Shown one piece after another: positions 5,443 through 56,287 of a stretch of 64,000 nt of DNA; position 1 is the stretch's first letter; each line of letters opens with the position of its first letter. Source of the stretch: Podarcis gaigeae (lineage: Eukaryota); the NCBI GenBank assembly GCA_964106915.2, contig OZ066916.1. One strand, written 5' to 3'. Below the pieces are notes generated by a model. The model did not search any database. It was given only the letters and a program-made list of their open reading frames with translations, and was not told the origin of the DNA. The position numbers and the translations under genes are program-made.

Positions 5443-6805
5443 CACACAAAACTTAACATTGAGCAACAAGTGCATGGAAGTAGTTCAACCCTTTGGATGA
5501 ATTTGTTATTTAATAGCAGCTCTATCTCATCTCCCCAGAAGATCTTGCTGCTCACAACATCAACCAGTATACAACATTCCTGTTTATTTCACACATGATT
5601 TTTTCAGTTGACCATGAAAGCATCCCTAGTCAGACACCACATAGGAAGATCCTGGTTTTAGACAAACTTTTGGGGCATGGCTGACTTCACTGGGGTGCAA
5701 TTCTAGAGCTCTTCCATGACCTATTTACACATGGAGCTTGTTGAAAGGTGACTGAAGAACATTTTGTACCGAGAGAGGAAAACTGTCATGAGAGGACGTG
5801 TCATGTCAGGATACTGCAGTTTAGAAGAAAAGCTCATAAATTATGTTTGACGGGGGAATTGATTCCTTTTACTTCTCCAAGTCACAGCACAAAGTTAAGG
5901 TACTGTGCTAGGCACTGAAATCAGGAACCGTTTAGTCTTAATCTTCTCCCATATTTATAAAAAAAATCCATTTAAAAAAAATTCAAAGCAGTTTACCAGT
6001 TAAAATGAATACAAAAATGTAAACCTTATCACCAGCCAACTGTTTTGGAAAATACTTTTCTCAGTTGTCAGCATAAGCCTGGCTGCCAAGAAAAGTCTTT
6101 GGCAAACATTTAGAAGTTAAAACAAAAGGTGCTTGTGGAATCCCTGTTGGAGAAGCATTCCACAGGAGAGGGTCAATAACACGGAAGGCTTGGTTTTGTG
6201 TTGATGTCAAATGAGCGTCACCAACAATCCCTAAATCCTGTACGAAATGTCCAAGGCCAATCACATGAAAACAGTTGGCACTGAACAGTGTTTTTGCATT
6301 GATGCTTTTCAGGCAACACAAAATGTGCTTTCTCAGGTGCAGAATTCAATGGGCTGCTCTTCAGCAGCAGTGTCCATGCACCAGTGTGTGCTATGAGAAA
6401 ATCTAGCAATATCAAACATCATTTTTGTCAGTCTCTGCCATTCTAGTTTAAGCTGCCTGTTGGTCCAAAAAGCATTAGGAGCTTGGGATTGCCAAACAAA
6501 TACCGTCCTTTCTGGTGGCTATGTTGCTGTGGCAGAATAAAGTCCTCTCTCCCAGTTCACCAGCCTATGGAGAAATTGGCAAGAGTCATTTCTTTAAATA
6601 TTTTTTACCATCCAACCAACAACCCCCCTATTCCCACTGCCATTCATTGCCAGATTTCTTAAGTGTAAGACATAGACAGACAGAACGTTCTTCTGTCTTG
6701 TGTATAGATTCTGTCGTTTTTAGGGCACAGACCCTTTACCTTATCTCAGAAACGTTTTCATGACTGTTTGATTCCCTCCCATCCCCTTTTTTGTGTGCTT
6801 TCCAG

Positions 6806-7001
6806 GTATTTCATCTCTCATAAACCAAACAAGACCTGGCAGCAAGTGTTCTGGTTTGCCATCAGCATTGCCATAAACAACGCCTACATCCTATACAAAA
6901 TGTCCGACGCCTATCACGTGAAAAAGTACAGCCGGGTGCAGTTCGGCGAGAGACTTGTCAAAGAGCTACTGGGATTGGAGGATATTTCACCTTGCCATTG
7001 A
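6806..7001 (+). CDS. PGBD5: PGBD5 last coding exon ([64 protein letters not shown])
   Basis: Polypyrimidine tract and ccag acceptor ending at 6805; AA|G completes Lys; TGA at 6999-7001; matches the PGBD5 C-terminus. Confidence 0.96.
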
Positions 7002-8358
7002 TGCACCATTCCCCGTGGCTTAGGTCAGGAGCGGGGAAGAGGAGGAAGACGGCGACAACTCTGGAACGCCAAAGTGAGGACCTTGCAATCACAGCAGCCA
7101 TGCTGCTCCCCCATGTGACAAAGTGACCAGGGAAACCATGAATGTGGTGTGGTGGGCTTTGATGAAGGCCCCACCAGTATCCCTAAGGCCCTAAAGAGTG
7201 CCATGGGCACTTAACGCATCAGAAGCAAATTTAAGTTAGCAGCTGTTTCTTAATACTATTTGTTAAACAGGGTGTTAATTGTCACATGAGGCCCCTTTCC
7301 CTGTCCTCTCCCAAACTGAGGTGGCTCAATTGTTCAGACGGGGCATTACTGTAAAGCATATTCAGTTTTTTAAAAATGTGTGATCCACGGTGTCCTGTGT
7401 TTGCAGATGCTCAGCGCCTGGTGAGAGGTCACGGAGAGGTCGCTAAACAGAGATACTGAAAAATGTATAAATCTATTTTGCAAGCCTATGGTTAGGCAAC
7501 GGCAGTGGGGACTTAGATGACTGACGAAGATTTTATTTTCTTGCAATGCTTTTGGATTGTAGGAGGGAATATAATTTAGGAGGGGAAGAAAAAAAACAAA
7601 ACAATTTTTTTAAATATAAAGGAATAGCCAGAAATTGGTGGCTTTGCCTATCAAAGCTAATGTCATTTCGCCTTAAAGTCAGTGTGAGCTTTGAGGCTAA
7701 CTTCAGTGATGCCATAATGCGAGAGATTTAATTTAATTTTAAACACAGTATATTCTTTTCCCAGCATCAAAGCACACTAATACAAAAGATAATCTAACTT
7801 TTCGTTAACTTTTAGTATCTGCAAACATACACAGGATCCCACAGCACAAGCAACAATGAAAAAAGCAGAACCAGAGGCTTCCCACTGCTCTTTCTTTGCA
7901 GATGCATATCCCATATCTGAATTTTTCATTAAAATACTGCTGACAGCACATAATGCACTATTGCGCAAGAGCATCTTTGGATTTGGACCATAATGTAATG
8001 CACTACCCCTCCACCGCACCCTCCTGGTAAAGACTGTTTTAGCATACCTTTTAGTTAATATTTGCACAAACCTGGCAGGAAATAATAGTTCAACATGTTT
8101 TGTTGTGTGCTCAGGGTGTGGTCCTGTAAGACTTCTTTGAAGTGGAGACTTCCTATAATAGTTACACATTTGCAGAAATTACACATCTGGAAAAACCATG
8201 TACTGAGGTTTTGAAATCAACCACGATCCAAGCACCTATAGCTCTCACAAGGGCAACATGACAAATAGGTGGATTGTGAGTAGGGAGGCTACTTGGAAGT
8301 TTATGGTACTAGTGGCCAAGAGTTGCAAGAGGACACAATAAAAGGCTTTCATTAAGGT

Positions 8359-8460
8359 AGGGATGGCCAACCTATTGGTCTCTGCTCCCATCAGCCCCAG
8401 TGGTGATGGGAGCTGTAGTACCACAAATACCTGGAAGGCCATAGGTTCCCCATCGCTTGC
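8359..8460. mobile_element. Short hAT-type MITE, degenerate
   Basis: tagggatggccaacct...gggagctgtagt...ctggaaggccataggttccccatc; same family as 17565-17703. Confidence 0.5.
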
Positions 8461-9745
8461 ATAGAGCATGAGCTCAGTATAAACACCTTCCATCAGCAAA
8501 GCGGCAAGATCTCCTCTGGGAAAGTGTATTCATGGGCTTTCCAAGGAGGGCCTGAATTCTTCTACACTCACTGGCACTAGTGGTTTTTAAGGGCTAACAT
8601 TCCTGAGAGATGGGGAGGGGTAGCTTGTTTTACCCAGAACTCATCCTCTCCTAAAGGCCATACCATAGAGCAAGGAAATCTGGCTGCATTATAACTCCTT
8701 AAGGAAAACCGTGGTACTATTATATGGAGAACGTTCCACCCACCCATTCTTTACATAGTCAGGGATGTAGCCTGACAGGATGCTGTTCTTGCAGCCTCTC
8801 AGCCCAGTAAGATTACTAGAGAGTATACACACACATATGAATTTCCCTGTAGAAAATAGTAATGCAGAAAGGCTCTCCTTTCTGTTTTTCTCAATTCAGT
8901 AAATGAGGCTCAACTCAGCGGTGTCTGATTCCAGGGTCAATTCCTGCCTCTGCCCTCTTTTTCCTCCCCCTGGAGTCCTACAGTGCACCAATTTGAAAGG
9001 TGAGTGAAGCGAATAAGGCTTCATGGCAGACTTCCTACTTATTCTGAAGGTTTCTGTATTAAATAATCTTCCAAATATGTTGCACCCAACCAGTAATGCT
9101 TCTTCTCTTACATAGACACAAGTTAAATTCCCACTGGAATTAAGGACTCCACAGAGTTCAGTGTGGGTCATAGGATCAAGATATACTTACTAGAAATCTA
9201 TAGCAACAGCCAGTCAGATGTTTTAACAAAATTCTTTTCTTGTATAAAAATTTCCACCAGGTCTTAGTTTGGCCTCAGGGATTGGCCCCTGATATTTTTT
9301 TTTCCTTGTAGTTAACACTGGTTATTAGATTGTACAGCTTTGGAGTGAGAAAAAACAAAATGGCAGCCATATATTGTTCAGTTCCCACCTAGACACCCTA
9401 CTCATTGGCATGTGATGGTTTCCTAAATGCGTTTCAAAAATATATTATTACACTCACCCAACTATTCTAAGTTGTGAAAAGGTCCAGCAGTATAGAGCTT
9501 GGATTCCTTTAGGAGGAGGTCAGCCACTGGAGGTTTACTGCTGTTTTCTAATGTTTACATTCATTTACAAATATACATCTTGAGCTTAAACACTCCAAGA
9601 GCGTGCCAAAGCCCACTGCTCTGCTGTCAGGTCTTGGGAGATAAACAACACCCTGGGAAGCTTACAGAGCCCTAACTCAGCTCTTTGCATCTGGGTGTCC
9701 TCAGCCTCAGTTCTATGCATGCTTACCTGAGAGTAAGCCCCAATG

Positions 9746-10173
9746 AGAGGAATTCAATTCATTTTGCATTCACCTTTAAACTACCTAATTTGCACTTTTT
9801 TTGAACGATATGTGAACTGAAAAACAGTAATCCTCCAAGATTCACACTTTGAATTTTGCAGGGCAGTTGTGTCAAGTGATGTGTACAGAAAAGCATATTC
9901 TAGGGTAAAATGGGCATAAAAATGCATATATTCATGAAAATAGCATACGCAAATGCTTTTTATCAGGGGAAACTGCTTTGCCAAAAAATGTGTATATTAG
10001 TTAAAATTGCATACAAAAATGTGTTCATTTGGAGAAATGCATACTAAAATGCTGACAAAATTTTATTAGGTTTTTATTTTAAAAAATCACAGGTTGCAGG
10101 AATATGTAGAACTGAATTTAAGATTTAAATTTAAGAGGAACTTTGAGAACTGGAACTGATTTGTCTATTCCTA
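9746..10173. mobile_element. AT-rich hAT-like MITE nested in an older short element
   Basis: Colinear with 12805-13537 (ctacctaatttgcact, aaaatgcatatatt, gcaaaattgcatacaaaa); splits a ctatgcatgcttac...aggattgca element (about 9706-10228). Confidence 0.55.
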
Positions 10174-13159
10174 GTCCCCGGGAACCCAATGAGACTTATT
10201 TCTGAGTGATATATATAGGATTGCACTGTAAGGTACTAATAATCTAACTGCACAAAAATGTTGTGGCCAACTCAGACTCCAGTCAGCCTTTGGGATGAAG
10301 CCAGAATTTAATTCCTCCTCTCCCTCTTTCCCCAATTAATCAGACAAAAGTGCTAGGAAGTTATCTGAAAAGGGCTGTGTCTATTCACCTTCGCTAGACT
10401 ACTCTCAAAGAATTTGACCAGGACATAGATTTAAATTCCTCCCACTGAGATCAACAGAATTTGAAAGTGTTCCATTTCTGACTAGATCATGAGGGCATCA
10501 CTATTGTGTGCTTGAGTTTCTGCAAGATACTGCATAAAGGATGGAAGTCTTGCAAGCCAACATCTGTAATGCTGGTGAGTTGGGGAAAGCAAGTTGATTC
10601 CTATACAGTTTCAGCTCATTCTTTGCCAACATGAGAAATATGAACCTGCCCTTCCCAGCTGACCAGCATTTTATATGTTGGACTGTAAAACCTCCTTCTT
10701 GTTTAGGATTTCAACCTATGCATAGGTCCCACTGAACGCACTGGGATTTACTTCTGGGAAAGCATACACAGGCATTTGGCTATTATTTCCTCTGGATAAA
10801 ATAGTAACTATGTTGATCTGCTATATTAGTAACCACGTAAGCACTCAGCAGGGATCTTTGCCAGTCTCATGTCTGGGAGCTGTTCAACAAAGGGGGGCAG
10901 AAGCGAATGAAACATTCTTATCACATGCTGAATGCCACAAAAGTCAAGTTGACCAAAGAGATGGAAGAGTGAAAAGGCTGCCTGTTTGAGGTAACTGGTT
11001 TTCCCTCTGCTAATGTCTGTCACTCAGCACTAGAAGGAGACATGGAAGCAACCGTCTGCATGTGTAACTGATACAGGGACACATCTGGACGTAGCTTTCC
11101 ATACATTTTGATGCTTATCCGGAACCCATTCATAGGTGCAACCCCTCCCCACCAATTGCTGCATGTACACAACATCCTACTCAGGCCTAGAGTTGGATCA
11201 GGGCCTTTGGGCATTGTTGCAGCTCAGCCATTCAACATGGGAAAAAAGTTGTCATGGCAATGCAAGATATAAACCACACACCATGCACAATAAATTATCC
11301 TCTGAGTATCGTGTCGCCATGCTCTGTTAAGATGTTCCTTTGACTATTGTTTATTATTATGGAATGGAACATCTTCCTGCTCATGAGTGTTGTTCGGGAA
11401 CTTTTTTGAAAACTCTGAATGCTTAGTGGGACACTGACTCCGGACTGCCCCCCCTTTCCCATTTATATGTTTGACAATTAAATGGTGGGGGGTTAAAGCA
11501 TAAACCTGATGGGCTCCACTTTTTGCTCTTCCTAGCCATCCCTTCCAGGCACTACTTTTGTTCGGTTTAAAAAAACCCACAGAAATCCTTGTTCCTACAT
11601 GCAGTTCTCTTGTGCCATTTAATAATTGATTTGGGGATCTCACGATTTTTCGTTCTTGTACATTTATGAGGATATAGCTCCCTAAAGTTTAGCAAGAGGG
11701 CAGCAACTCAAAAAGAAGCCACTTTAGAACTTTTAATTGATGCTTCCCTACAGAAGGCTTTGTTCTGCTAACAGGTGCTTAGCAGAATCTCATCTGACCT
11801 GGCAGTTAATGAGACCTCTCCTAGCTTCTTCCTGTGCTTCCTCCAGGTATGGACTGCCAGTTCTGGTGCTCATTTCAGCAGTGATTCAGGATGAGGCCGC
11901 ATCGTTTCAGCATTTTGTACTTTGATGACACCTCCCAGTCACAGAGTTCAAGAAAGTGCTTTTTTAAAATAAATAAATAAATGCACTAATGAACTATTCA
12001 CTGGAACACATGGAAACGCAAGAGCCTTTTTTTGCCCTATAAAATGTGGAATAGAGAAAAGAAGTTAAGATTAAGAACTGCATTTTAAAAAAAATTACAT
12101 TTCCTGGGTTGGCCACTCACAAATCCACCCTTGAATATTGGAGTGGCTCTATCTAGTGTATATGACGGCCAAGTGTCCACAATTGAGCTTACAGCTTGTT
12201 AGTAGTAGTTTCCATCAATTCTCTTATGAGATCTGGCGGCATTTCTGATGTTTACGACCACTCATTTTTGCATCAGAAGTTATATTCCATGTCCAAGATC
12301 CTAGTGAATCTTAGGACACCATTTTTGACATTCTAGCAGTACTTCTTTACTGCCTTCTGCTACCAATATATGAGCTGGAGGTGTCTCTGAGCATTGCATA
12401 TCTAACATGAAAGCCTAATAAGATGAAAGGGTTGAGCCTGTTGAGCAGCTGGCTGCCTATTCTCTGCAGTAATTCATATTTACTTCTCATGAGCTTCCAA
12501 AGCTGTGTGAGATCTCCATGCACTAGAAAGTTATGGTTCTGAATACTATGTTCAGAATAGACAAAATGCTTTGTGTTCTTTTGGCTGGTAGTGTTTTGGC
12601 TGGTAGTCTTTTCAGTGTTGCCCACTGCAATGGGACAAAATGTAGGCTTTTCAAATAGAAAACTAGCAGAAAGGAAAATGGAAGGTGGCCCGGCTAAGCA
12701 ATCGTTGCCTGCAGGAGCTACCAAGGGCCACAGCCTAATGAAGTGATTGGAAATGAGGACATTAATAAAACTCTGCAGAAATGTTCTTATAGGTGAGGTT
12801 CCAATAGGGGTGGGGTAAAAGTCAGTTCAGTTTGCAATTTAATGCATGCCTACCATAATTCACACTCATTGAAATAATACATGACTAAAATGAAGCTATC
12901 CTTTAAAATTCACACTTCTCCAAATTTTGTGATCTTGTGGTCCAACCAGGAAACAAACAAAAAATCCAAAATACACACATTAGAGGAAATAGCGTATAAA
13001 AATGCACATTAGTGAAAACAACATTAAAAATGCCTTACGGATGGGGAAATCATGTTGCAAAAATGTGTGTCTTGGGCAAGATTGCATATAAATATACATT
13101 AGGAGATGTGCACACTGTGGGCTCATCTCATTTTTGTGGCAATATATATATATATATAT

Positions 13160-13420
13160 ATGCAGGTTTTGGTGTCCTCGGGTGTCTTCCCGTGTAAAAG
13201 TTGGGGTGTCTAGGCGACGTTTCGACGAGGTCTCACTCGTCATCTTCAGGCTGGTGCTTTCGGCTTCTTGTTACTGGAACAAGAAGCCGAAAGCACCAGC
13301 CTGAAGATGACGAGTGAGACCTCGTCGAAACGTCGCCTAGACACCCCAACTTTTACACGGGAAGACACCCGAGGACACCAAAACCTGCATTCCTGTACCC
13401 GTGAAAATCTACGAAAGCAA
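13160..13420. mobile_element. Penelope-like element remnant: inverted pseudo-LTRs with perfect 113-bp arms, inserted in (AT)n
   Basis: 13160-13272 is the exact reverse complement of 13278-13390 around a 5-nt loop; CTGAAGATG...CGAAACGTC signature; 30-nt tail; (AT)n on both sides. Confidence 0.8.
13296..13340 (+). ncRNA. Minimal type I hammerhead ribozyme motif (PLE-associated); mirror copy on - strand in the left arm
   Basis: CUGAAGA (13301-07), extra U, stem II GACGAG/CUCGUC, GAAA (13327-30), C-GUC; predicted cut after C13334; stem I only 2-3 bp. Confidence 0.6.
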
Positions 13421-13646
13421 ATATATATATATATATATATATAATGAAAGTGATTCAGACATGCGCTGAACTGAATTCAAGACTAGAAATATAAGAAAAA
13501 GAGATAAAAGCAAAACTGATCGACTTGCCCCTTCCTAGATTCCAACCTCCAGAGGAAGATCTGTAGCCAACAGCTCTGCAGCTAAACCTGCTCAATAAAT
13601 AGATACCTTTCAAAGTTAAACAGTGAGCTCTAATATTGATGCTCAG

Positions 13647-13771
13647 CAGTACTTTTCTTCTAGAAAAAAAGGTGTCAGTACTCACCATGAAGTTGTTACA
13701 GTGCTTTTCTTTTAGAAAAAAGAGGTGCAGGTATCGCATACCGTTGAGTACCCCTGGGGAAAAAAGCACTG
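13647..13771. mobile_element. Short hAT-type MITE
   Basis: TIRs cagtactttt / aaaagcactg; TSD atgctcag / ctgctcag; related copy at 41752-41896. Confidence 0.65.
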
Positions 13772-13948
13772 CTGCTCAGTGAGGTTCATAACAGAAATAT
13801 TAGAAGTAACACTTTATCATTGCATTGTAACAAACTATTAGTATGTATAGATTTGAAAGAGCTCCTTAGTCTTCCTTCCATTGTGTCTTCTCATACTCTC
13901 TGTGAAAGAGCCTTCTCAGATATAAAGCAAAATAACACCCTGTAATAA

Positions 13949-14173
13949 TTACAGGTAGGTAGCCGTGTTGGTCTGCCATAGTCGAAACAAAATAAAAAAA
14001 TTCCTTCAAGTAGCACCTTAGAGACCAACTAAGTTTGTTATTGGTATGAGCTTCTGTGTGCATACACACTTCTTCAGATACACTAAGTGTTCATGCACAC
14101 GAAAGCTCATACCAATAACAAACTTAGTTGGTCTCTAAGGTGCTACATGAATGAATTTTTTAATTTTGTTTCA
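13949..14173. mobile_element. Second Penelope-like (reptile Neptune-type) remnant with inverted pseudo-LTRs and degenerate hammerhead motifs
   Basis: gtagccgtgttggtctg...gcaccttagagacc signature; arms at about 13986-14053 and 14103-14172; 12-bp direct repeat accctgtaataa at 13937 and 14174. Confidence 0.75.
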
Positions 14174-15170
14174 ACCCTGTAATAAGTTTAAGAGTCAAGA
14201 GCAGAGGGGAAAAGGGGAGTTGTGATCCACTGTTCGAAGAGAGTAGCAAAGCCAGCAATATCCCAGATATTAATGTAGGCTTTACTATGGATTTTGAAAG
14301 ATGTGGCAGACTTTCCTAAGGCTTACAGCGCAATCCTATGACACATTGACTCAGAAGAAAACTTCACTGATCACAGCCTCACACAGTGTCTTCTCCAACT
14401 TTCCCAGATTTGGATCTTGGGATGAACCTCAAAAGTGTTGATGAGCTGATACCATATGATGTTGCAACAGACCTTTTTCTTTTGGCCACAAGGCTAATAA
14501 TCCATAGCCACACTGCAGTTCACTGCCTTAGAAAACAAATTCAACCTGACTAGGATATATGAGCTTACCAGAGAATTTTCAATGGGTCTTGAGCATTAAA
14601 ATCCACCACCACAGCCCACATACAAATACCCTGAGGCAATGGCAGATTTGTCCAAGTAAGAAAGCAACACTCATCCTCTGCAAAAACACTTATTACATCC
14701 ACAAGTCTGCCTTTGAAGTTAAGTTTACTTAGATTTTTAAACTAAACAGTCAATTCCTATGCACCCAAACCCACTGATCTCAAGCAGTTCAATTTTCTGT
14801 TATTAAATGCTATTTCTTTTTAAAACAATATCTGTACCAAGATACCTTGTTAACATGTGTGTCACAAGCCTTGATTTTTTAAAGCATCCTTAAAAGCCAT
14901 TTTCGACTTACACTCCCGTAAGTGCTTAGACCAGCTCAACCCCTCATGTTACACCAGTGCAAGTATGAAAATACAAATCATTTTCGAGCATTGAACTTTG
15001 GCCATTTAGGTATGTAGGCATGTGTGTAAATTTCATCCAAATCAAGACAGGGTATATTGATGGCAATCACTGTGACAGGGCAACCTATTGTGGCAAAGAT
15101 ATCAGAGGTATCCCATCAGCCACCATGCTTTTTACTGTATGCTGCATTTTTCTTTTTGGTAAATTCTATT

Positions 15171-15521
15171 GGGACGCGGGTGGCGCTGTGATCTAAACCA
15201 CTGAGCCTAGGGCTTGCCCATCAGAAGGTCAGGGGTTCGAATCCCCACGACGGGGTGAGTTCCCGTTGCTCGGTCCCTGCTCCTGCCAACCTAGCAGTTC
15301 GAAAGCACGCCAAAGTGCAAGTAGATAAATAGGTACCGCTCCAGCAGGAAGGTAAACGGCATTTCCATGCGCTGCTCTGGTTCACCAGAAGCAGCTTATT
15401 CATGCTGGCCACATGACCCAGAAGCTGTATGCCAGCTCCCATGGCCAGTAAAGCGAGATGAGTGCCACAACCCCAGAGTCATCCACGACTGGACCTAATG
15501 GTCAGGGGTCCCTTTACCTTT
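15171..15521 (+). mobile_element. Sauria SINE, full length
   Basis: gggacgcgggtggcgctgtg head, B-box ggttcgaatcc, (acctt)n tail. Confidence 0.9.
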
Positions 15522-24071: not shown

Positions 24072-24227
24072 CTATTGCTGCAGGTTCAGGGTGAACTTCC
24101 ACTGCTGCGACAGCGAGGGGTTGCAGACTTCAACCGTCAGACCACCGTTTTTGGCATTTCGGCTGTCTAAGCAGAGGTTACTGCCCACGTGCCTCAGTTT
24201 CGCGTTGCTTTCAATTTGTTCCCATTT
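24072..24227 (-). CDS. GALNT2: GALNT2 exon 16 ([51 protein letters not shown]), ricin lectin gamma repeat
   Basis: ccag acceptor; 156 nt; TAG stop followed by a second TAG; matches the GALNT2 C-terminus. Confidence 0.97.
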
Positions 24228-24230
24228 CTG

Positions 24231-24250
24231 GAAGAAGAAGAAGAAGAAGA
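24231..24250. repeat. (GAA)n repeat, forming the (TTC)n polypyrimidine tract of GALNT2 exon 16
   Basis: Direct reading; abuts the acceptor. Confidence 0.9.
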
Positions 24251-24667
24251 AAATTTAAAAAGTCACTCCACTTAGATAAACGTTGATTTTAAAAGCCAGT
24301 ATTTTCTAGGGTTATTTTGTCTACCATCTATCTTCCTTACAGCAAATAATTGCAACTCCTTAAAGTCACTACTGTTAAATTTGCTTTGCAAACCTGCTGT
24401 GGCTGTAAATTTTCCTTCAGCATTGTCCATGCAAACTTCCCAAATGGAAGCTGAAAGCCCCTGGTATACTGGAGTGGGAGATTACATACCGGGAGGTGAA
24501 TGAAACCTAAGGATTTAGTTATACTAGACAGCTTGCTGTAAGAAAGGCCAGCCATCAGTTCTACTGTTTGTGAAATGTTCTCCCCAGGGAGGCTTACCTT
24601 CATTATATACCTTTAGGCACCGGGCGAAAACATTCCTCTTCAACCAGGCCTTTGACTGAATAACATG

Positions 24668-26139: not shown

Positions 26140-26485
26140 CCAGTCAAAGGCAACTATGGGGTTGCGGCGCTCATCTTGCTTTTCAGGCTGAGAGCGCCGG
26201 TGTTTGTCCACAGTTTTCCAGGTCATGTGTCCAGAATGACTAAATCGCTTCTGGTGCCACGGAACACCGTGATGGAAACCAGAGCACACTGAAACACCGT
26301 TTACTTTCCCGCCGCAGCAATACCTATTTATTTACGTGCACTGGTGTGCTTTCAAAGTGCTAGGTTGGCAGAAATTGGGACAGAGCAATGGGAGCTCACT
26401 CCATCGCAGGGATTTGAACGGCCAACCTTCCAACTGGCAAGCCCAAGAGGCTCAGTGGTTTAAACCACAGCGCCACCCGCGTCCC
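26140..26485 (-). mobile_element. Sauria SINE
   Basis: Ends in cacagcgccacccgcgtccc, the reverse complement of the head. Confidence 0.85.
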
Positions 26486-29451: not shown

Positions 29452-29587
29452 CAGGCATAGGCAAACTTGGCCCTCCAGGTGTTTTGAGTCTACAATTCCC
29501 ATCATCACTGACCACTGGTCCTGCTAGCTAGGGATCATGGGAGTTGTAGGCCAAAAACATCTGGAGGGCCAAGTTTGAGGAAGCCTG
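29452..29587. mobile_element. Short hAT MITE, young
   Basis: TIRs caggc...aaacttggccctccag / ctggagggccaagttt...gcctg; perfect 8-bp TSD ccttagat. Confidence 0.85.
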
Positions 29588-29949: not shown

Positions 29950-30009
29950 CTATTGAGAGAAACAGTGTTTATCAGCTATATTTAAATTGGCACAATCTAA
30001 AAAGAACCA

Positions 30010-31375
30010 TTGGTTCCTATCTCAAGGGTAGTTCTGTGTTGCTGGACGAAGAGCATCACTCAGGGTGCCACCTTGTGGTCAAAGGCAGAAAAGAGAACTT
30101 GAGGGAAAGCTCCCAGAGTTCTAGCCAAGCTCCAACAGGTTGCTCAGACAAGACACAGAAACATACAGCGAGAGAACAAATGCCCACTTTCCTAACAATA
30201 ACAAAATGGGAAAAGCATGTTAAGCTGGATAAACTATGGTGATTAATTGGAGCAGCCAAAAACAGGGCGAGACCTGATGCCCCTCACCCAGCAACACAGA
30301 ACTACCTTTCAGGTGTGAACCAACGCTTCTTTCTCTTGTTGCTGGAGAAGAGCTTCAATGAGGAACATGTTAAATAGAAAGTACGAGGTTTGTTCTTCCA
30401 CCCGAGATCCCTCACTCCACTCCCCTGGATCATATTCGGGGTTAACGAAGGGATCCAGTGAGCCCAACGCTGGTGCTAGAGGAGGGCGTCGCAATAATGG
30501 ATAAATATTAGCTGTCCCTTGGGGAATGTCAAAAGGGTTAAGGGAGTCTGGAGCAAGTTCAGCCCAACGTGGGGGTTGAATGTGGATGGGAGACCCTTTT
30601 GTGGTGGAGCTGCGACTGATCACACTGTCCGTTCTGTGAAGGCAAGACAGAAGTAGGTTTTGCCACAGGCAAGTCAGAAAGGATAGCAGTAATGTAACCC
30701 CTTAGCTCCACATACGTATCTGGCAACAAAGCTTCCTTTATTTGTTGCGAGAATGTCAGTAGTAAGCTGAAAGATAGGGAGCCTGAGAAGCAGTTTGTAG
30801 AGCGCTTCAAACAGGGATTTTATTGGGCACAGAAGGCTGAACGGACTGAATAGAGGGATGCAGGGGAGGGGGAAGGAGTTAAAAACAACAACACAAAACC
30901 ATAAACTGCCCATCCTCAGAGGGCCGGGGAGAATGCAAAACCTCTAAAAGGGAACGCTGCGAGTTGTCACACAGTATCCTCAAGCCCTCACTCTTTATAA
31001 GGAAAGGGGCAGTCACTAGCCTCAGTCAGGAGGTCTGAGTGCTGCTAGGAGGCATTCCTAGATAATAAGAGCAATTGGCTTCACATCCATTTGCTGCTTC
31101 CCCTACAGAAGCCTCAGTGGCTTTCAGGTTTTGTGTTGCTCTGCAGATTGCCGGTTGGTTAGTGCCAGCTGAGGCCACATTCTCTGGCAAGCCGACTACC
31201 ACTAGAGCAGCAAGGAGGAGCCTGAGAGGCCAGGAAGCAAAGTTCCCTTCAGGGAGAGAGCTAAGTGCAGAAAATTCTGGATTCTGGGAGCTTCCCTCAC
31301 ATCTTTCTTATCTTTGACCATAAGGTGGGACTGAAACCTTCACTGATGCCCTTCTCTGGAGACATGTGAAACTGT
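30010..31375 (-). mobile_element. Internally deleted DIRS-like (tyrosine-recombinase retrotransposon) element
   Basis: Outer inverted repeats 30010-30124 versus about 31277-31375, plus an internal complementary region 30276-30323 pairing with 30010-30057 (39/48 identical). Confidence 0.5.
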
Positions 31376-37894: not shown

Positions 37895-38216
37895 AAGGTA
37901 AAGGTAAATGACCCCTGACAGTTAAGTCCAGTTGCGGCGCTCATCTCATTCTCATTCTATAGGCCGAGGGAGATGGTGTTTGTCTGCAGACAGCTTCATG
38001 TGGCCAGCATGACTAAGCTGCTTCTGGCAAACCATTTACCTTCCCGCCAGAGCAGTACCTATTTATCTACTTGCACCACGTGCATTCGAACTGCTAGGTT
38101 GGCAAGAGCTGAGACCGAGCAACGGGAGCTCACCCCGTCGCAGGGATTCAAACTGCTGACCTTCCGATCGGCAAGCCCTAGGCTCTGTGGTTTAGACCAC
38201 AGAATCACCTGCATCC
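37895..38216 (-). mobile_element. Sauria SINE
   Basis: (aaaggt)n tail; TSD tggcgttatggtta / tggagttatggtta. Confidence 0.85.
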
Positions 38217-43176: not shown

Positions 43177-45772
43177 TCAGTTTAGTAATTCAGTTCAAAA
43201 AGAATCAGACTACTGACAAAGGGCAAAACAATTGAGTTTACTTATCATCCTGCTATACTTACACCTTCTACAACTTCTAGCCGAGGCTGTTGTTGGGTGA
43301 CAGGACAGTGAGCTAGACAGCCCATTAGACCAGATCCTAATAAACCTCTCTTGTGACTAATACAATCGCACTCGGCTTTCCTATTTTCGTGTTACTGAGA
43401 TTCACAACTGCCTTGTGTGAAGCATGAATCTGGTGTGCTTGTGGATGGACTTGTGCCGGTATTCCAAACTGGGCCAACAACTTCCCGCATCCTAACCACC
43501 GTGCGTATCCAGAGGTTGCAGCGGAATGAGGGAAGTCTCCCCTCTTCACATCATGGTGCCTGAAAATTAGGAGTGCCGCTGTAGCAAGTTCCTAAGCACT
43601 AAGGACATTATGGAACATAATTTTCCCAGCATCCCTGGTACCTGGGATGTTGCTGCAGCAGCAGCATTCTAAATTCCAAGCACCATGGAGGAAAAAGAGC
43701 ATCTCCCTTCCTGCACGCCGTTATCATTGCTCCTGAAGTGGAACGCTGCAGTCGCCATAATAAGGGGACCATGGGGGGAAGAATTAGGGAATCAGAGAGT
43801 GCTGTATTTCCAGGGATGTCAACAGGAGCACAGCACAGCCCCAACTGAGCTCTGAATTAACATAATTATTAGTTTGCTTGGGGGAAACAGCTCTATCTGC
43901 TGAGTCCAGCTCTAAACTAACCTAAAGTGAAATGTTGCCCATCACTACTTTACTTGGAAGCACTTAACACAAGAGGAAAGGGAAAACTTTCAGCAAACAC
44001 ATAAGCCTTGATATCTTACAGTGTTTCCATTTTTACATTCATCCAAAGTGTGTGATAAATAGCCTTGCAAGCATCACACAGACGCTAGTGCATTGCAGTT
44101 TGAATTTTTAATTTGCTTATTTCTCTCTACACCATATTGTGCTTTGTTCATCTAATAAGCTACCCATGTGTGCATCACTTCATATAAAGACTGAAAAGAC
44201 TACAAACATCCATGATGTAGTAATTAGATGTAATCACACATTCCAGTGCAATCCTCATTACTTTCTAGCTCTAATTCTTATGTGTTAGGCAGTCCCTCTC
44301 TGCTATAAAACTGATAATAGGAAGAACATTTTAGAATAATTTACGCTGAGATATTCACAACCTTAACCCTTTTCACGCCTCAGGGAACAACACTACTAAT
44401 GAGCTGTTAAAAATTGTATAGACCACACAGTTTAAACAAAACCAGTGGGGTGTTTTGTAAATCAACTCCAGTTTAAATTATTTTTTAATATATTTTGGTA
44501 GTATAAGGTCATGATAACTATACAAGGAAGGTATCTGGGATAAATAACCAGTCACATTATTAACAGATAACCACCAGTACTCTAGGTCAAAATGATGCTC
44601 ATGTTTCAGAAATAGAGAATATACAGGGGGGAAATACTGCAGTAAGAAATAACGGAAAACTTAGGAAAGGCAAATTATATAATTTAAAATTACTTGCACA
44701 TTTCATGTTCAACAAATCTCTTCAAAAGCACTCTTCTGGAGGTACTACCTCTTGAACTTTTCAACTCCTTCCCACCTTTTTGTTTCATTTGCCCAGGGGG
44801 AAACTTTTCTTCTGATAATATTCTCCTGAATTTTTTTTTTAAATACTGCTCTCTCAGAGATGTTTTTTTATGATCCAATAGCAGTACTGAAAGCTGCCTA
44901 TCTCCTTAACTTAGGAGCAATTATAATTTTTATGCACGAACCCAACAACACAGTGCCTTAACCCACCTTCCACTACCCAGTGGTCTGAATAACTTGCCAC
45001 TCTTTCTGCCTTTGAACATACAGCTTATAATAGTCAGTGTTGCATTTGGTCGTATACTTATCTATACATTTGTTAGGATCAATATAATAATTTTACTGTT
45101 AACCTCAGCTGACTATACTTCTCTCTTTCTCTCCGTCATATTTGCAAATATCTGTTAATAAGATAGTAGTAATCAATCATATCCAGCTCTTAATGACAGG
45201 TTATTGATTTTATTACTCTGTTTCTCAATGGCTGAAAACTAAGGTTTTGTATATTTTTGGCTAGCTTACAATATGTACTTTTTAATATCTTATAGTGCAA
45301 TTATTATGCATGTCTTTTCTTTTTTTTAAGAACCCTGTGCATTTTTTCAGCTCAGGAATCAATTGAGATGTGAATAATGAAATGCTATTTACGCCTCTAC
45401 CTGATCTTGCCAAACATTTCATTAAAGCTACTTTGTGAGCAATCTATACATGTTATGAACTCCAAAAGAAAACAAAGTTTTAAGTTCAGCACAAGAACAT
45501 CATTTAAATTTCACAGAATATAAGAACACTAGAATATTGCCACTGAATGATGAATTTGTTCAAACTTTGTAACAGAAGTTCCTGCAGATGCAACTATGCC
45601 ACTACTGACTATGAACTGGAAATACCTTCCATCTTTTAACTGCCTCCTCGGGTATATGTTGCACGGTTACAGGAATTTTGTAGATAATACAGCAGTTATC
45701 AAATGTAATCAATAAATTAATTTCTAGCTCACCCTTCCTCGCAAAGGAGTCTAGGGTAGAAAAGACTCCTTC

Positions 45773-51978: not shown

Positions 51979-52340
51979 GGGACGCAGGTGGCGCTGTGGG
52001 TTAAAGCCTCAGCGCCTAGGACTTGCCGATCGAAAGGTCGGCGGTTCGAATCCCTGCGGCGGGGTGCGCTCCCGCTGCTCGGTCCCAGCGCCTGCCAACC
52101 TAGCAGTTCAAAAGCACCTCCGGGTGCAAGTAGATAAATAGGGACCGCTTACCAGCGGGAAGGTAAACGGCGTTTCCGTGTGCGGCTCTGGCTCGCCAGA
52201 GCAGCGATGTCACGCTGGCCACGTGACCCGGAAGTGTCTCCGGACAGCGCTGGCCCCCGGCCTCTTGAGTGAGATGGGCGCACAACCCCAGAGTCTGTCA
52301 AGACTGGCCCGTACGGGCAGGGGTACCTTTACCTTTACCT
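51979..52340 (+). mobile_element. Sauria SINE, young full-length copy
   Basis: Intact head and B-box, many retained CpGs, (accttt)n tail, perfect TSD tatcggggttcaag. Confidence 0.93.
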
Positions 52341-53094
52341 TATCGGGGTTCAAGTCTATTTGGGTTCAAGTTATACGTAGCACTTAAAGATGCTTCAAAT
52401 GCATAAGGTGCTAAAAGAGGATCCCTTTGAACTCTGAAAGGAAAGATTTCTAGATCTTGCATTAACTCCACTATTCTAACATTCCAGTAGAATAAGAAAT
52501 GTCCTAAGGCTTAAGCCACTTTGCAACTATTCCTTATTTCAGCATTTGTACCCTGCTTTTCCTTCCAAAAAGGAAGCTCAAATAAGCAGCGTCTGATTAA
52601 GGGCGAGTCCTACACCAGAGAGGATGGCAGAACGTTCCTATTCAGCCCAAAGTGAATTATGGCTATGACTGAATAATACTGAGCCTGCTGGTGCCCAGAG
52701 GCATAACTGGCAAAGGAATGAATCAATCATGGTACAATGCAAAAAAAAGGGGGGGGATGTGGGGGGGGGGAATGAAATGCAAGTTCCAGTATTACACCAT
52801 AGTAGTTCTCTGTTAACAGTTAAGCAATCGAAACCGGTACTTGCATTCATACTTGGCATGCGCCTGATAAGATTACAGGAAGAATCCATCCTAAAATAGG
52901 TTGTATCATATGACAAGGCAAAAGAGACTCAACTTCTCCTTAAATACCAGTTTAAATAGAAGTTAGCATGGGACCTCAAACAACCAACAGGTCCAAAACT
53001 GGGGGAGTTGTGGCCTTCACTTTTTAATGGAGACATTAAAAATTAGTAACATTTCATTATTATATTAATAATATTCCTGAAAGATAAGAGTGCA

Positions 53095-53172: not shown

Positions 53173-55894
53173 TCACACGAGCGGGACCTGGGGGCACTGT
53201 TACTTGTAAAGCCTGTGTGCGCTCTGAAGTGCAGCCATTGATTAATTCCATAATCAACAAAAATATTCCACAAAACGTAGCATTAGCTTCATGCATAATT
53301 CAGTTTACAAGTTATAGCACGCATCATGACAGACCTGCTTTAAGGAAGCTCTGCTGCCAATGAAACATTTAAGAACTTGACTTTAAATATGTCATCCTTA
53401 CAATTGTTAATAGCAACGAAGTTATTTATAACATGAACTAGGTAATGTGCCGTTTTATTACACAATCAGTGAGACCAGTATTTGTTTTCTACTCATCCAC
53501 TGCACTTTTTTTCAGAGGTTACAGCAATGCAGATAAACACGATAGTATAAATTTGAAATACTCTGCTTAACTGTGACATTTCTCCAATATAAGCACACTG
53601 CAAAACACACAAACTCAATCTCACGAAATATGTTCAGCTTCCAGAGCACATCTTCTGAGTGCAAAATGACATTTGCATTTCAAAGTAAAATTTGATTTAG
53701 GGAGCATTTATCCTTTTACCATCTCAGAGCCAATTACTTAGCAGCACCTCTATCAAGCAAGTTTTGTTTTAAATGTCTTTCTTGGACTTTTGGCCCAGGA
53801 ATCTGGATCCTTCATGGAACCCAATGCTATTGTAACCCTAAAAACACTCTTTTATTTGATTCTGGAGGCCATTAGGGGGTTGTTTTTGTTAAGCTGAAAA
53901 ACATTAGCAGGCAAGAAGTGGTCTGAAAAACAGATAGGCCATTTACTTGAAATACTTTTTAAATATACATACTTAACATCAACTTGCTTACCAATTTGTA
54001 TATTTAAAGACATTTAGTTTATATGCAACACACTGCAATAAAATAAACTCTCTCATCAATGTTAACATAGCAACATGAACTATTGTTTCACCTTGGATTT
54101 GGAGTCCTTCCACGACTGCAATGGATGTGAACTCAGCAAGAATGAGAATGTAACTACAGTTCTAATACAAGAGGGAGCTACATTCAGACACACTGCTTCA
54201 GGCACAAAGCATCTAGTTAACTGTGCCTAAGGAGACTCAAAGCCTTGATTCATCCCTGAATTCAGGTTGACAGATTCAAAAAGAATTTGGGTCAGTTTTT
54301 GCTGGTTGCTGTTTATTTCAGCAAGGTGACACTATAAACACTGCAGAGAAAAGGAAGCATATTTGCTTATTTTGAAGAGTATACTGCTGGAGGGACATGG
54401 TAAGAGATAATGAAGTGTTTCAGAAACCTGTATTAACTCTGGGTTGCATTCAGTTGTGTCCTTCCCCTGATGAGAGAGTATTTGATCCAGTGGAGACTAG
54501 AGGGGGTACAATCTTTGCTGGTTCCCCAAATCAGCTCTTTGCCCCCAAAATTTGCTTTGGAGAGTCAGAAGACCAATAGGCAGCAATGTGAGAAGGGGTG
54601 CAGGAGAAAGGGGGAATCTGCAGAAGTCACATCTTCCCCCTTTCTACTCAACTCAAGCCTCTGCTAGGTCAACTAGTCTTGTATCAGCAGAAGAACATTG
54701 CTGGATGCAAGTCTACCTTCACCTCATTTCTAATGTCATGCTTTGCTCCCATCTAGTCCTTCCCAACACTTCAGAACACGGATCAGGCAGCCTGTCTCAG
54801 ATTAGACATCATTAGAAAACAGATTCAGAAGTGACAGGCCACCAATAAGGTACTCAGTGCAAAGCAGTACTGATTACATTCTCTGGTAATAGGATAGGAC
54901 GTAAATGGAGGAGCCAATACTGGGAAAGTAGCCAAAGAGGAAATATTAGTTATAAAGGGTGCTTAGATTTATTCAACCTTTGTTAGTCTCAACCTTAGTT
55001 TTATTAATATTTATCACAGCTAAAATTAAAAGATTAAAGCATATTAATTACTACTTTATTTAAAAGGTCAACTGCAAGCCTTTCATTACAAAGTGTGTGG
55101 TCATAAAATGTTGGTACAATTTTAAAATGATAGTAGCATTTGCGGGCTGGGACACATTAATTCACAAAGCTGCATAGAAATCTTTCTTTAAGTTGAGTGT
55201 CAAAAGAGAAGCTCAGGTTTTTATGTCCTGCACTACTAAATTCAGTGAACTATAATCCTCATACTTTATTAACAGCAGTGAGGTCATCAAGTTTTGCAGG
55301 ATTCAGAAAATTCTGTTTAGAATTTCAAAACATCGAACATCTGTTTACCTTTTAAAACTTAATGGCTTGCAAAAGCCCATATTCTTTTCTTACTGGTTTG
55401 CGATCTTAAAAGATGAAGCTAGCACACAGAATTATCAATAGACTAAAGCCATTCTGACTGGACATTCCAGTTCAGTCACAGAAGGGACAAAGGGGCACAG
55501 TAATGCTTATTGCTTCAATGCCCGGGGTCAGATTTATATGCCAAAGTGAACATAGGAAGAGAGATGAAGGACGCTCCAAGAGGCTATGATCTTTATCACC
55601 AGGTTAGTAGTAGGCATGTGTGCTTTCTATCAAAGGCTCTGCCAGAGAGATTATTTGCAGCTAACATAAGTGCTGTCCAAGTGTCATTCTAACAACTTGA
55701 TAGCCCACAGTAGGATCAGGTGGACATGCAGATGTCATTCTTATGCATGCCCATTCAGAAGGGTTACTAGTCAGATAACACAGATGTCACTCTAAACCCT
55801 TGGTAGAAGAGTAATGGGTTGGATGAAGTGATAATGAACAAAGCTCTGCTCAGGATATGGGCCTTTCCTGCCTTCATCTCATTGCAATCTGTGT

Positions 55895-56287
55895 AAAGGT
55901 AAAGGTAAAGGTAAAGGTAAAGGTAAAGGTAAAGGTAAAGGTAAAGGGACCCCTGACCATTAGGTCCAGTCGTGACTGACTCTGGGCTTGTGGCGCTCAT
56001 CTCACTTTATTGGCCGAGGGAGTTCACGTACAGCTTCTGGGTCATGTGGCCAGCATGACTAAGCTGCTTCTGGCGAACCAGAGCAGCGCACGGAAATGCC
56101 GGTTAACTTCCCGCCGGAGTGGCACCTATTTATCTGCTTGCACTTTGATGTGCTTTTGAACTGCTAGGTTGGCAGGAGCAGGGACCGAGCAACAGGAGCT
56201 CACCCCGTCGCAGGGATTCGAACCGCCAACCTTCTGATCAGCAAGTCCTAGGCTCTGTGGTTTAACCCACAGTGCCACCCGCGTCCC
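55895..56287 (-). mobile_element. Sauria SINE with expanded (TAAAGG)n tail
   Basis: About 9 hexamer units at 55893-55947; ends gccacccgcgtccc; degenerate TSD tgcaatctgtgta / tgcagcccgtgta. Confidence 0.9.

What the first reader, a model, noticed from the sequence alone, without database searches (positions are those of the whole stretch)
13296..13340. Hammerhead ribozyme core in sense orientation downstream of PGBD5, preceded by its own perfect antisense copy
Seen: the + strand reads CCAGC-CUGAAGA-U-GACGAG-ugagac-CUCGUC-GAAA-C-GUC-GCCUAG. This has all conserved hammerhead core nucleotides, a 6-bp stem II, an extra U between A9 and G10.1, and a loop-less stem III with the palindrome ACGU. Known: Penelope-like elements carry such minimal type I hammerheads, which typically need to dimerise through the palindrome, and an extra nucleotide after A9 occurs in natural viroid hammerheads. 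Inference: if the PGBD5 3'UTR spans this site, the mRNA carries a potential self-cleavage site after C13334. The upstream antisense arm would normally sequester it, which suggests a latent ribozyme that unwinding or editing could release. Caveat: stem I is only 2-3 bp, so it may be inactive.
Basis: partly seen in the sequence, partly recalled or inferred. Interest (0 to 1): 0.75.

Follow-up and report, generated by a model that had tools for sequence, protein, structure and literature searches.

The report
Young Penelope retroelement hairpin near PGBD5
The small self-cutting-RNA motif is real, but it is the built-in ribozyme of a common Penelope-type jumping gene whose short stub, likely a recent insertion, sits beside a mirror copy of itself that is predicted to lock it shut, so it is ordinary transposon debris rather than a switch for PGBD5.

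Summary
The motif is there (core 13301-13334) and fits the published minimal-hammerhead consensus of Penelope-like elements (PLEs). It lies in a 262-bp insert (13160-13421): a 113-bp perfect inverted repeat plus a one-sided 31-nt tail, between two (AT)n tracts. An ATG inside the ribozyme opens a 39-residue frame that is 62-69% identical to N-termini of Poseidon-type RT/GIY-YIG proteins. The insert ends where the anole Poseidon element starts reverse transcription. The sequence is a high-copy repeat, and a related organism's contig shows the empty site. So this is a 5'-truncated Poseidon insertion with the usual inverted copy and tail.

'Sense orientation' is uninformative, because a palindrome reads antisense-then-ribozyme on both strands. 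Folding the ribozyme would cost about 73 kcal/mol, simulated editing barely changes that, and one transcript carries no dimer partner. Contigs of two probable RNA runs of relatives cover most of the 6.1 kb after the PGBD5 stop, so a long 3'UTR is plausible but unproven. If so, the RNA is likely a double-stranded hairpin, not a latent cutter. This scan noted the same architecture before on other genomes. Ordinary; low interest.

The parts
13142..13161 (.). left (AT)n tract, target microsatellite (last 2 nt shared with the arm)
   Evidence: a related organism has only about 11 letters here at the empty site
13160..13272 (-). inverted 5' copy of the element (ends at +82/+84 from the ATG, lacks the tail); carries an identical hammerhead core on the - strand from 13249 down
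13273..13277 (.). 5-nt loop, pivot of the inversion, 24-28 nt upstream of C3
13278..13390 (+). direct arm: 3' part of the pseudo-LTR with hammerhead and ORF start
13299..13336 (+). minimal type I hammerhead: 2-bp stem I, core 13301-13307, extra U 13308, stem II 13309-13326, GAAA 13327-13330, ACGU palindrome, predicted cut after 13334
   Evidence: fits the published consensus
13307..13423 (+). first 39 codons of the Poseidon-type ORF (ATG overlaps A9/U/G10.1); truncated, no RT or endonuclease here
   Evidence: 69% to P0002, 62% to P0003; chain to RT/GIY-YIG proteins
13391..13421 (+). 31-nt one-sided tail; ends at +115 from the ATG (boundary blurred by a few nt of microhomology with the TA tract)
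   Evidence: tail of 30-40 nt
13421..13443 (.). right (AT)n tract
6786..7001 (+). context: approximate last coding exon and stop codon of the piggyBac-domain gene read as PGBD5
24072..24254 (-). context: reading frame holding the last coding exon of GALNT2 (stop at 24072), converging on PGBD5; 10.6 kb from the insert
   Evidence: (E 4e-26 to GalNAc-T2)

Best explanation
The 262-bp insert is a 5'-truncated stub of a high-copy Penelope/Poseidon-type retrotransposon, likely inserted recently into a (TA)n tract between PGBD5 and GALNT2, and the hammerhead is that element's own motif, predicted to stay locked inside a 113-bp hairpin and so likely silent here. Shown: the anatomy, the ORF start inside the ribozyme, high copy number and the empty site in a relative. 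Inferred from the anole element: the GIY-YIG domain nicked AT-rich DNA on both strands, and reverse transcription began at two internal sites of the element RNA (about +115 and about +84 from the ATG). The two cDNAs stopped or turned 24-28 nt upstream of the core and were joined head to head, which gives a long arm with a tail and a short inverted arm without one. Any RNA read through the site from either side would zip into double-stranded RNA from the loop outward before the core is made, so its likely fate, if transcribed, is that of any inverted-repeat hairpin (editing or dicing), not self-cleavage.
For: Peptide from ATG 13307: E 4.7e-05 against 1.84 billion representatives, matching residues 1-39 of P0002. 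P0002 leads to P0003 (snake, 65% over 97%). P0003 leads to 471 longer proteins, 118 of the 120 listed with an RT domain, among them a lizard protein P0021 (82% over 137 aa) and the anole protein P0017 (40% over 345 aa). [quoted passage not shown] Frangieh 2024: ORF starts at stem II, cut 26 bp after the start codon (here 25), RT starts at +111-118 (here the end is +115, the codon aligned to anole +118), tail 30-40 nt (here 31). Craig 2021: an inverted 5'-truncated copy and a one-sided tail are typical, and (TA)n targets are listed for PLEs; summed contig depth of 114,000-154,000 over the insert in two DNA runs, against 0-49 in the bins 10418-12857; X4 record 29 joins 13130 to 13455 with 33 letters where the window has 324. 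Folding.
Against: No full-length copy of this exact family was obtained at DNA level; the clade call rests on a chain of protein matches from a 39-residue peptide. The empty site is seen in one contig of one related organism; the same-species run X2 showed no listed record across the site, so the insert was not confirmed in a second individual and polymorphism is untested. Loss of a palindrome in the relative is formally possible. Summed depth is not a copy number. Rfam does not recognise the motif. The joining mechanism of the two arms is inferred, not shown. The anole paper states the +111-118 site; I saw no number for its second site.
Confidence: 0.93

Rival explanations
1. Latent, switchable self-cleavage site in a long PGBD5 3'UTR, released by unwinding, editing or the element's protein.
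For: All core nucleotides are intact. Contigs of two probable RNA runs of relatives cover 4143 and 5828 of the 6140 nt between the stop and the insert. The anole relative does cleave when its protein is added.
Against: 72.8 kcal/mol penalty; the editing proxy changes the fold energy only from -259 to -253 kcal/mol; even without the left arm the stem I probability is 0.0015. No dimer partner on the same strand. Absent in a relative. Symmetric on both strands. A single S. mansoni minimal motif showed no cleavage, and dimers only low activity. A documented human cDNA has a 1779-nt 3'UTR.
Confidence: 0.03
2. A MITE or other fold-back DNA element inserted at TA, with a chance or captured hammerhead-like motif.
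For: Long perfect inverted repeat between TA tracts; high copy number.
Against: The arms are asymmetric by a 31-nt tail. The sequence encodes the PLE ORF start in the published register. Motif plus tail at the same spacing also occurs as a single, non-inverted copy in L001 (found with a pattern that required both).
Confidence: 0.02
3. Assembly artefact: a fold-back chimeric read or a misplaced repeat made the perfect palindrome.
For: 100% arm identity; no independent record across the filled site was shown.
Against: The ends fit the published RT start geometry and tail. Unique flanks on both sides join in the relative. An older insert with the same layout and 91% arm identity lies 530 bp away.
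Confidence: 0.02

Closest known systems
Poseidon element of Anolis carolinensis (PAc; Frangieh et al. 2024, PMC11167929)
   Same: ORF starts at hammerhead stem II; cut site 25-26 nt after the start codon; insert ends at the conserved ENLR/ESLR-type codons where RT starts; 30-40-nt tail; AT-rich target
   Different: A different family (its closest long relative P0003 is only 40% identical to the anole protein); only the first 39 codons are present; stem I here is 2 bp; activity not tested here
Minimal hammerheads of metazoan PLEs (Cervera and De la Pena 2014, PMC4209133)
   Same: Matches their >80% consensus letter for letter: CUGANGA, extra H, G10.1-C11.1, long helix II, palindromic 15.2-16.2, no helix III. 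They also report pairs on opposite strands 100-700 bp apart, and similar motifs in turtle and snakes.
   Different: Helix I is at the short end (2 bp, as in their D. virilis and Oikopleura examples); no lizard example turned up in my supplement searches
PLE insertion architecture (Craig et al. 2021, PMC8557442)
   Same: 5' truncation, adjacent inverted 5'-truncated copy, one-sided 30-40-bp tail, microsatellite target that hides the target duplication
   Different: None of substance; this is a very short example
Inverted-repeat Penelope copies as siRNA sources in Drosophila (review PMC3681739)
   Same: An inverted copy that would give double-stranded RNA if transcribed
   Different: Small RNAs or editing were not examined here; transcription in this organism is not shown

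Membership tests
Metazoan PLE minimal hammerhead | Core CUGANGA-H, G10.1-C11.1, GAAA, NUH | tested here: met
Metazoan PLE minimal hammerhead | Long helix II, palindromic positions 15.2-16.2 instead of helix III | tested here: met
   6 bp, probability 0.98-1.0 in the arm alone; ACGU
Metazoan PLE minimal hammerhead | Helix I of about 3-5 bp | tested here: inconclusive
   only 2 contiguous bp, probability 0.0015; 2-bp cases are published
Metazoan PLE minimal hammerhead | Self-cleavage as dimer or with protein | not testable with these tools
   needs an in vitro assay
Rfam hammerhead families | Covariance-model score at gathering threshold | tested here: not met
   no hammerhead family among 15 matches to E=10 (the hairpin dominated that search; the arm alone was not searched)
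Penelope/Poseidon EN+ PLE | ORF start inside the hammerhead, homologous to RT/GIY-YIG polyproteins | tested here: met
   (through a chain of matches)
Penelope/Poseidon EN+ PLE | RT plus C-terminal GIY-YIG without the Neptune Zn-finger linker | tested here: inconclusive
   met in 5 of 5 relatives examined; the insert itself holds no RT or EN (tblastn)
Penelope/Poseidon EN+ PLE | 5' truncation with inverted copy and one-sided 30-40-nt tail | tested here: met
   113-nt inverted arm, 31-nt tail
Penelope/Poseidon EN+ PLE | Dispersed repeat, AT-rich target, empty site elsewhere | tested here: met
   (depth; X4 record 29)
Non-LTR retrozyme | Tandem head-to-tail monomers with a hammerhead in each | tested here: not met
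   one direct and one inverted copy only; no other copy in the window
Host-conserved (domesticated) hammerhead | Present at the orthologous site across species | tested here: not met
   empty site in organism B
MITE | Symmetric terminal inverted repeats to both ends | tested here: not met
   31-nt asymmetry and PLE coding homology

The most novel reading that the evidence does not exclude
The insert lies in a long neuronal PGBD5 3'UTR and gives this lizard lineage a new 113-bp double-stranded hairpin (with an older 91-bp one close by) that changes PGBD5 mRNA fate through editing or retention, or is diced into siRNAs against the ribozyme/ORF-start region of the still-active Poseidon family. Actual cleavage at 13334 would be the far less likely extreme.
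Probability: 0.08. Interest if true: 0.45.

Novelty: new member of a known kind. Interest (0 to 1): 0.13.

Why it matters
As found, it matters little: it is one more young insertion of a described kind. Its ends agree with the in vitro reverse-transcription start geometry of the anole element in a second squamate family, which is a small independent confirmation. It would matter more if the hairpin is in the PGBD5 message and varies between individuals, since filled and empty alleles would be a natural test of whether PLE hairpins affect host mRNAs or feed siRNAs.

Tried and rejected
No whole genome is held for this window, so copies could not be counted or aligned. Rfam gave nothing at gathering score and only generic miRNA-type hairpins and weak matches at E up to 10. 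The word-index protein search with the 50-residue frame found nothing, and Pfam found nothing on it; the full HMMER search did. P0001 is an MFS transporter prediction whose C-terminus runs into a similar stub; it was not used for the clade call. The motif-plus-tail pattern gave 0 viral loci and 1 metagenome locus, L001, a lone copy with no ORF of 150 aa or more. No listed holder is on record as RNA: no evidence either way. Gaps in X2 cover are uninformative. The X15 and X17 contigs stop at 13126 (and X15 resumes at 13456) where the tool skips repeats, so filled or empty could not be read for organisms H and I. Weak blastn hits at 45659-45676 and 53509-53532 (E 0.3, 1.1) show no hammerhead context and are taken as chance. 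The CAG just before the core is unlikely to be a splice acceptor as in D. virilis, since the 25 nt upstream are purine-rich. Cluster membership and names of P0001/P0002 could not be looked up. Lunse et al. on PLE hammerhead dimers is not held; it is known to me only through the review passage. Searches on PGBD5 3'UTR length found no reptile data in the listings; I recall a much longer annotated human 3'UTR but could not verify it. The PDB search of the PGBD5 exon gave nothing.

Full report
Observation. The sequence at 13296-13340 is as described: core C3-A9 at 13301-13307, extra U at 13308, stem II 13309-13314/13321-13326, GAAA 13327-13330, ACGU palindrome, C17 at 13334, and a 2-bp stem I. It lies in the right arm of a 113-nt, 100% inverted repeat (13160-13272/13278-13390, 5-nt loop). 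A strict descriptor fitted to the motif hit 0 of 100 simulated windows and a looser one 0.13 per window; a relaxed one hit 16 of 200. So the motif alone is suggestive, not decisive. Rfam did not recognise it. It does match the >80% consensus for metazoan PLE minimal hammerheads in the supplement of Cervera and De la Pena 2014 (PMC4209133; I read parts 1-2 of 4 of the text and supplement passages). Because the region is a palindrome, the same motif sits on the - strand from 13249. A transcript from either side meets the antisense copy first and the ribozyme second, so 'sense to PGBD5' carries no information.

Anatomy. The unit is (AT)n 13142-13161, inverted arm, loop, direct arm, a 31-nt extension 13391-13421 found only on the right, and (AT)n to 13443. 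Craig et al. 2021 (PMC8557442, passages) describe exactly this for PLEs: 5' truncation, an adjacent inverted 5'-truncated copy, a 30-40-bp tail at one end, and insertion bias for microsatellites. They state that bias for Naiad, Chlamys and Neptune, and list (TA)n as a preferred target in their figure legend.

Family. An ATG overlapping A9-U-G10.1 (13307) opens a frame to the end of the insert. A full HMMER search with the 50-residue frame gave 2 hits among 1.84 billion proteins. P0002 begins with the same ten residues and is 69% identical over 39. P0002 found 1 longer protein, P0003 from a rattlesnake (65%; 62% to the window peptide). P0003 found 471 longer proteins, 118 of the 120 listed carrying the RT domain PF00078. 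They include a wall-lizard protein P0021 (82% over 137 aa) and an anole protein P0017 (40% over 345 aa). [quoted passage not shown] Only 3 of the 123 stored proteins match the 39-residue peptide itself significantly, so the link to full-length proteins is a chain. No RT or endonuclease remnant lies in the window (tblastn with 6 proteins). The host is a squamate by these relatives and, from recall, by the SINE-like repeats.

Mechanism. Frangieh et al. 2024 (PMC11167929; parts 1-2 of 4 and the three readable supplements; the GenBank file could not be read) studied the anole Poseidon. By eye, the RNA in their Fig. S1 translates to residues 11-41 of P0017 with one difference, so P0017 is that family. 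They report that the ORF begins at stem II and that the cut lies 26 bp past the start codon (here 25). The protein nicks AT-rich DNA on both strands, reverse transcription starts inside the RNA at +111-118, and the tail is the stretch between two start sites. Here the long arm ends at +115 (the codon aligned to anole +118) and the short arm at +82/+84. I infer two cDNAs primed at those two sites and joined head to head 24-28 nt upstream of the core; how they were joined is not shown. They also found that the ribozyme did not cleave without protein, that cleavage was not needed for insertion in vitro, and that no RNA-seq reads began or ended at the cut site.

Copy number and age. Four of 24 listed runs were laid on 7002-14300. 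In the DNA runs X2 (organism A, the best-matching label) and X4 (organism B), summed depth over the two bins holding the insert is 114,000-154,000, against 0-49 in bins 10418-12857. That marks a high-copy repeat, though the figure is not a copy number. X4 record 29 joins 12936-13130 to 13455-13674 with 33 letters where the window has 324: the empty site, with about 11 letters of tract. With 100% arm identity this points to a recent insertion. Loss in organism B cannot be excluded, and no listed X2 record spans the site, so presence in a second individual is unconfirmed.

Can it cleave here? The whole insert folds at -259.3 kcal/mol. Stem II probability is about 1e-20, and forcing the ribozyme fold costs 72.8 kcal/mol. 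Reading all 13 left-arm A's as G, a rough proxy for full editing, gives -253.2 and leaves stem II near 1e-20. In the right arm alone stem II forms (0.98-1.0) but stem I does not (0.0015). The left arm is made first and pairing starts 23 nt before the core, so co-transcriptional folding would favour the hairpin as well (inference). Minimal motifs are thought to need a dimer; a single S. mansoni motif showed no activity and dimers little (review passage). One transcript here carries just one sense copy. Editing of right-arm A's would hit the core itself (10 A's in 13301-13334).

Is it in the PGBD5 message? The stop is at 7001 and GALNT2 ends on the other strand at 24072. Nine poly(A) hexamers lie on + before the insert, and a human cDNA has a 1779-nt 3'UTR (PMC3902484, passages). 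On the other side, listed contigs of two runs guessed to be RNA, from organisms H and I, cover 4143 and 5828 of the 6140 nt up to the insert and continue beyond it. RNA status is a guess, the strand is unknown, the runs were chosen for holding the stretch and no silent control was laid. This is a weak hint for a long 3'UTR or read-through. If transcribed, the closest precedent is siRNA production from inverted Penelope copies in Drosophila (PMC3681739, passages).

Internal comparison. About 530 bp downstream lies an older insert of the same layout in the opposite direction: arms 13981-14071/14085-14175 at 91%, a degenerate hammerhead core on - from 14077, and a tail of about 30 nt ending near 13950, where 145 contigs in each DNA run have loose ends. 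Earlier notes of this scan report the same architecture on other genomes; none exist for this sequence or place. I make no claim that this family is absent from print: searches listed nothing on it, but Repbase was not searchable.

Verdict. The PLE attribution is right and now specific (Poseidon-type stub with inverted head and tail). The latent-PGBD5-ribozyme reading is not supported. New member of a known kind, interest 0.13.

Noticed in passing
window 13951-14175: A second, older PLE-like insert of another family with the same layout in opposite orientation: 91-nt arms at 91%, degenerate hammerhead on the - strand from 14077, about 30-nt tail at left; very high copy; contigs of organisms H and I run into its ends, so it is probably shared with them.
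   Followed up: partly
window 13273-13277 and 14072-14090: In both inserts the inversion pivot lies at or just upstream of the hammerhead core, which may mark the 5' end of the copied RNA; earlier scan notes report the same trend.
   Followed up: no
window 7002-14300: Near-continuous contig cover in two probable RNA runs of relatives, with depth rising from about 6 to 14-21 away from the PGBD5 stop: possible very long 3'UTR or read-through from GALNT2.
   Followed up: partly
P0001 residues 194-240: A predicted MFS transporter whose C-terminus runs into a stub of the same PLE family (62% identity): possible exonisation or gene-model artefact.
   Followed up: no
L001 5001-5111: A lone hammerhead-plus-tail copy with the same spacing in a metagenome contig, no long ORF nearby; probably animal host DNA.
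   Followed up: partly
window 15171-15521, 26223-26485, 37996-38216, 51999-52341, 55932-56287: Several copies of a SINE-like dispersed repeat (76-89% alike); from recall a squamate SINE.
   Followed up: no
window 29452-29587 and 30001-30332: Two further inverted repeats with 58-nt arms at 81% inside GALNT2 introns, MITE-like.
   Followed up: no
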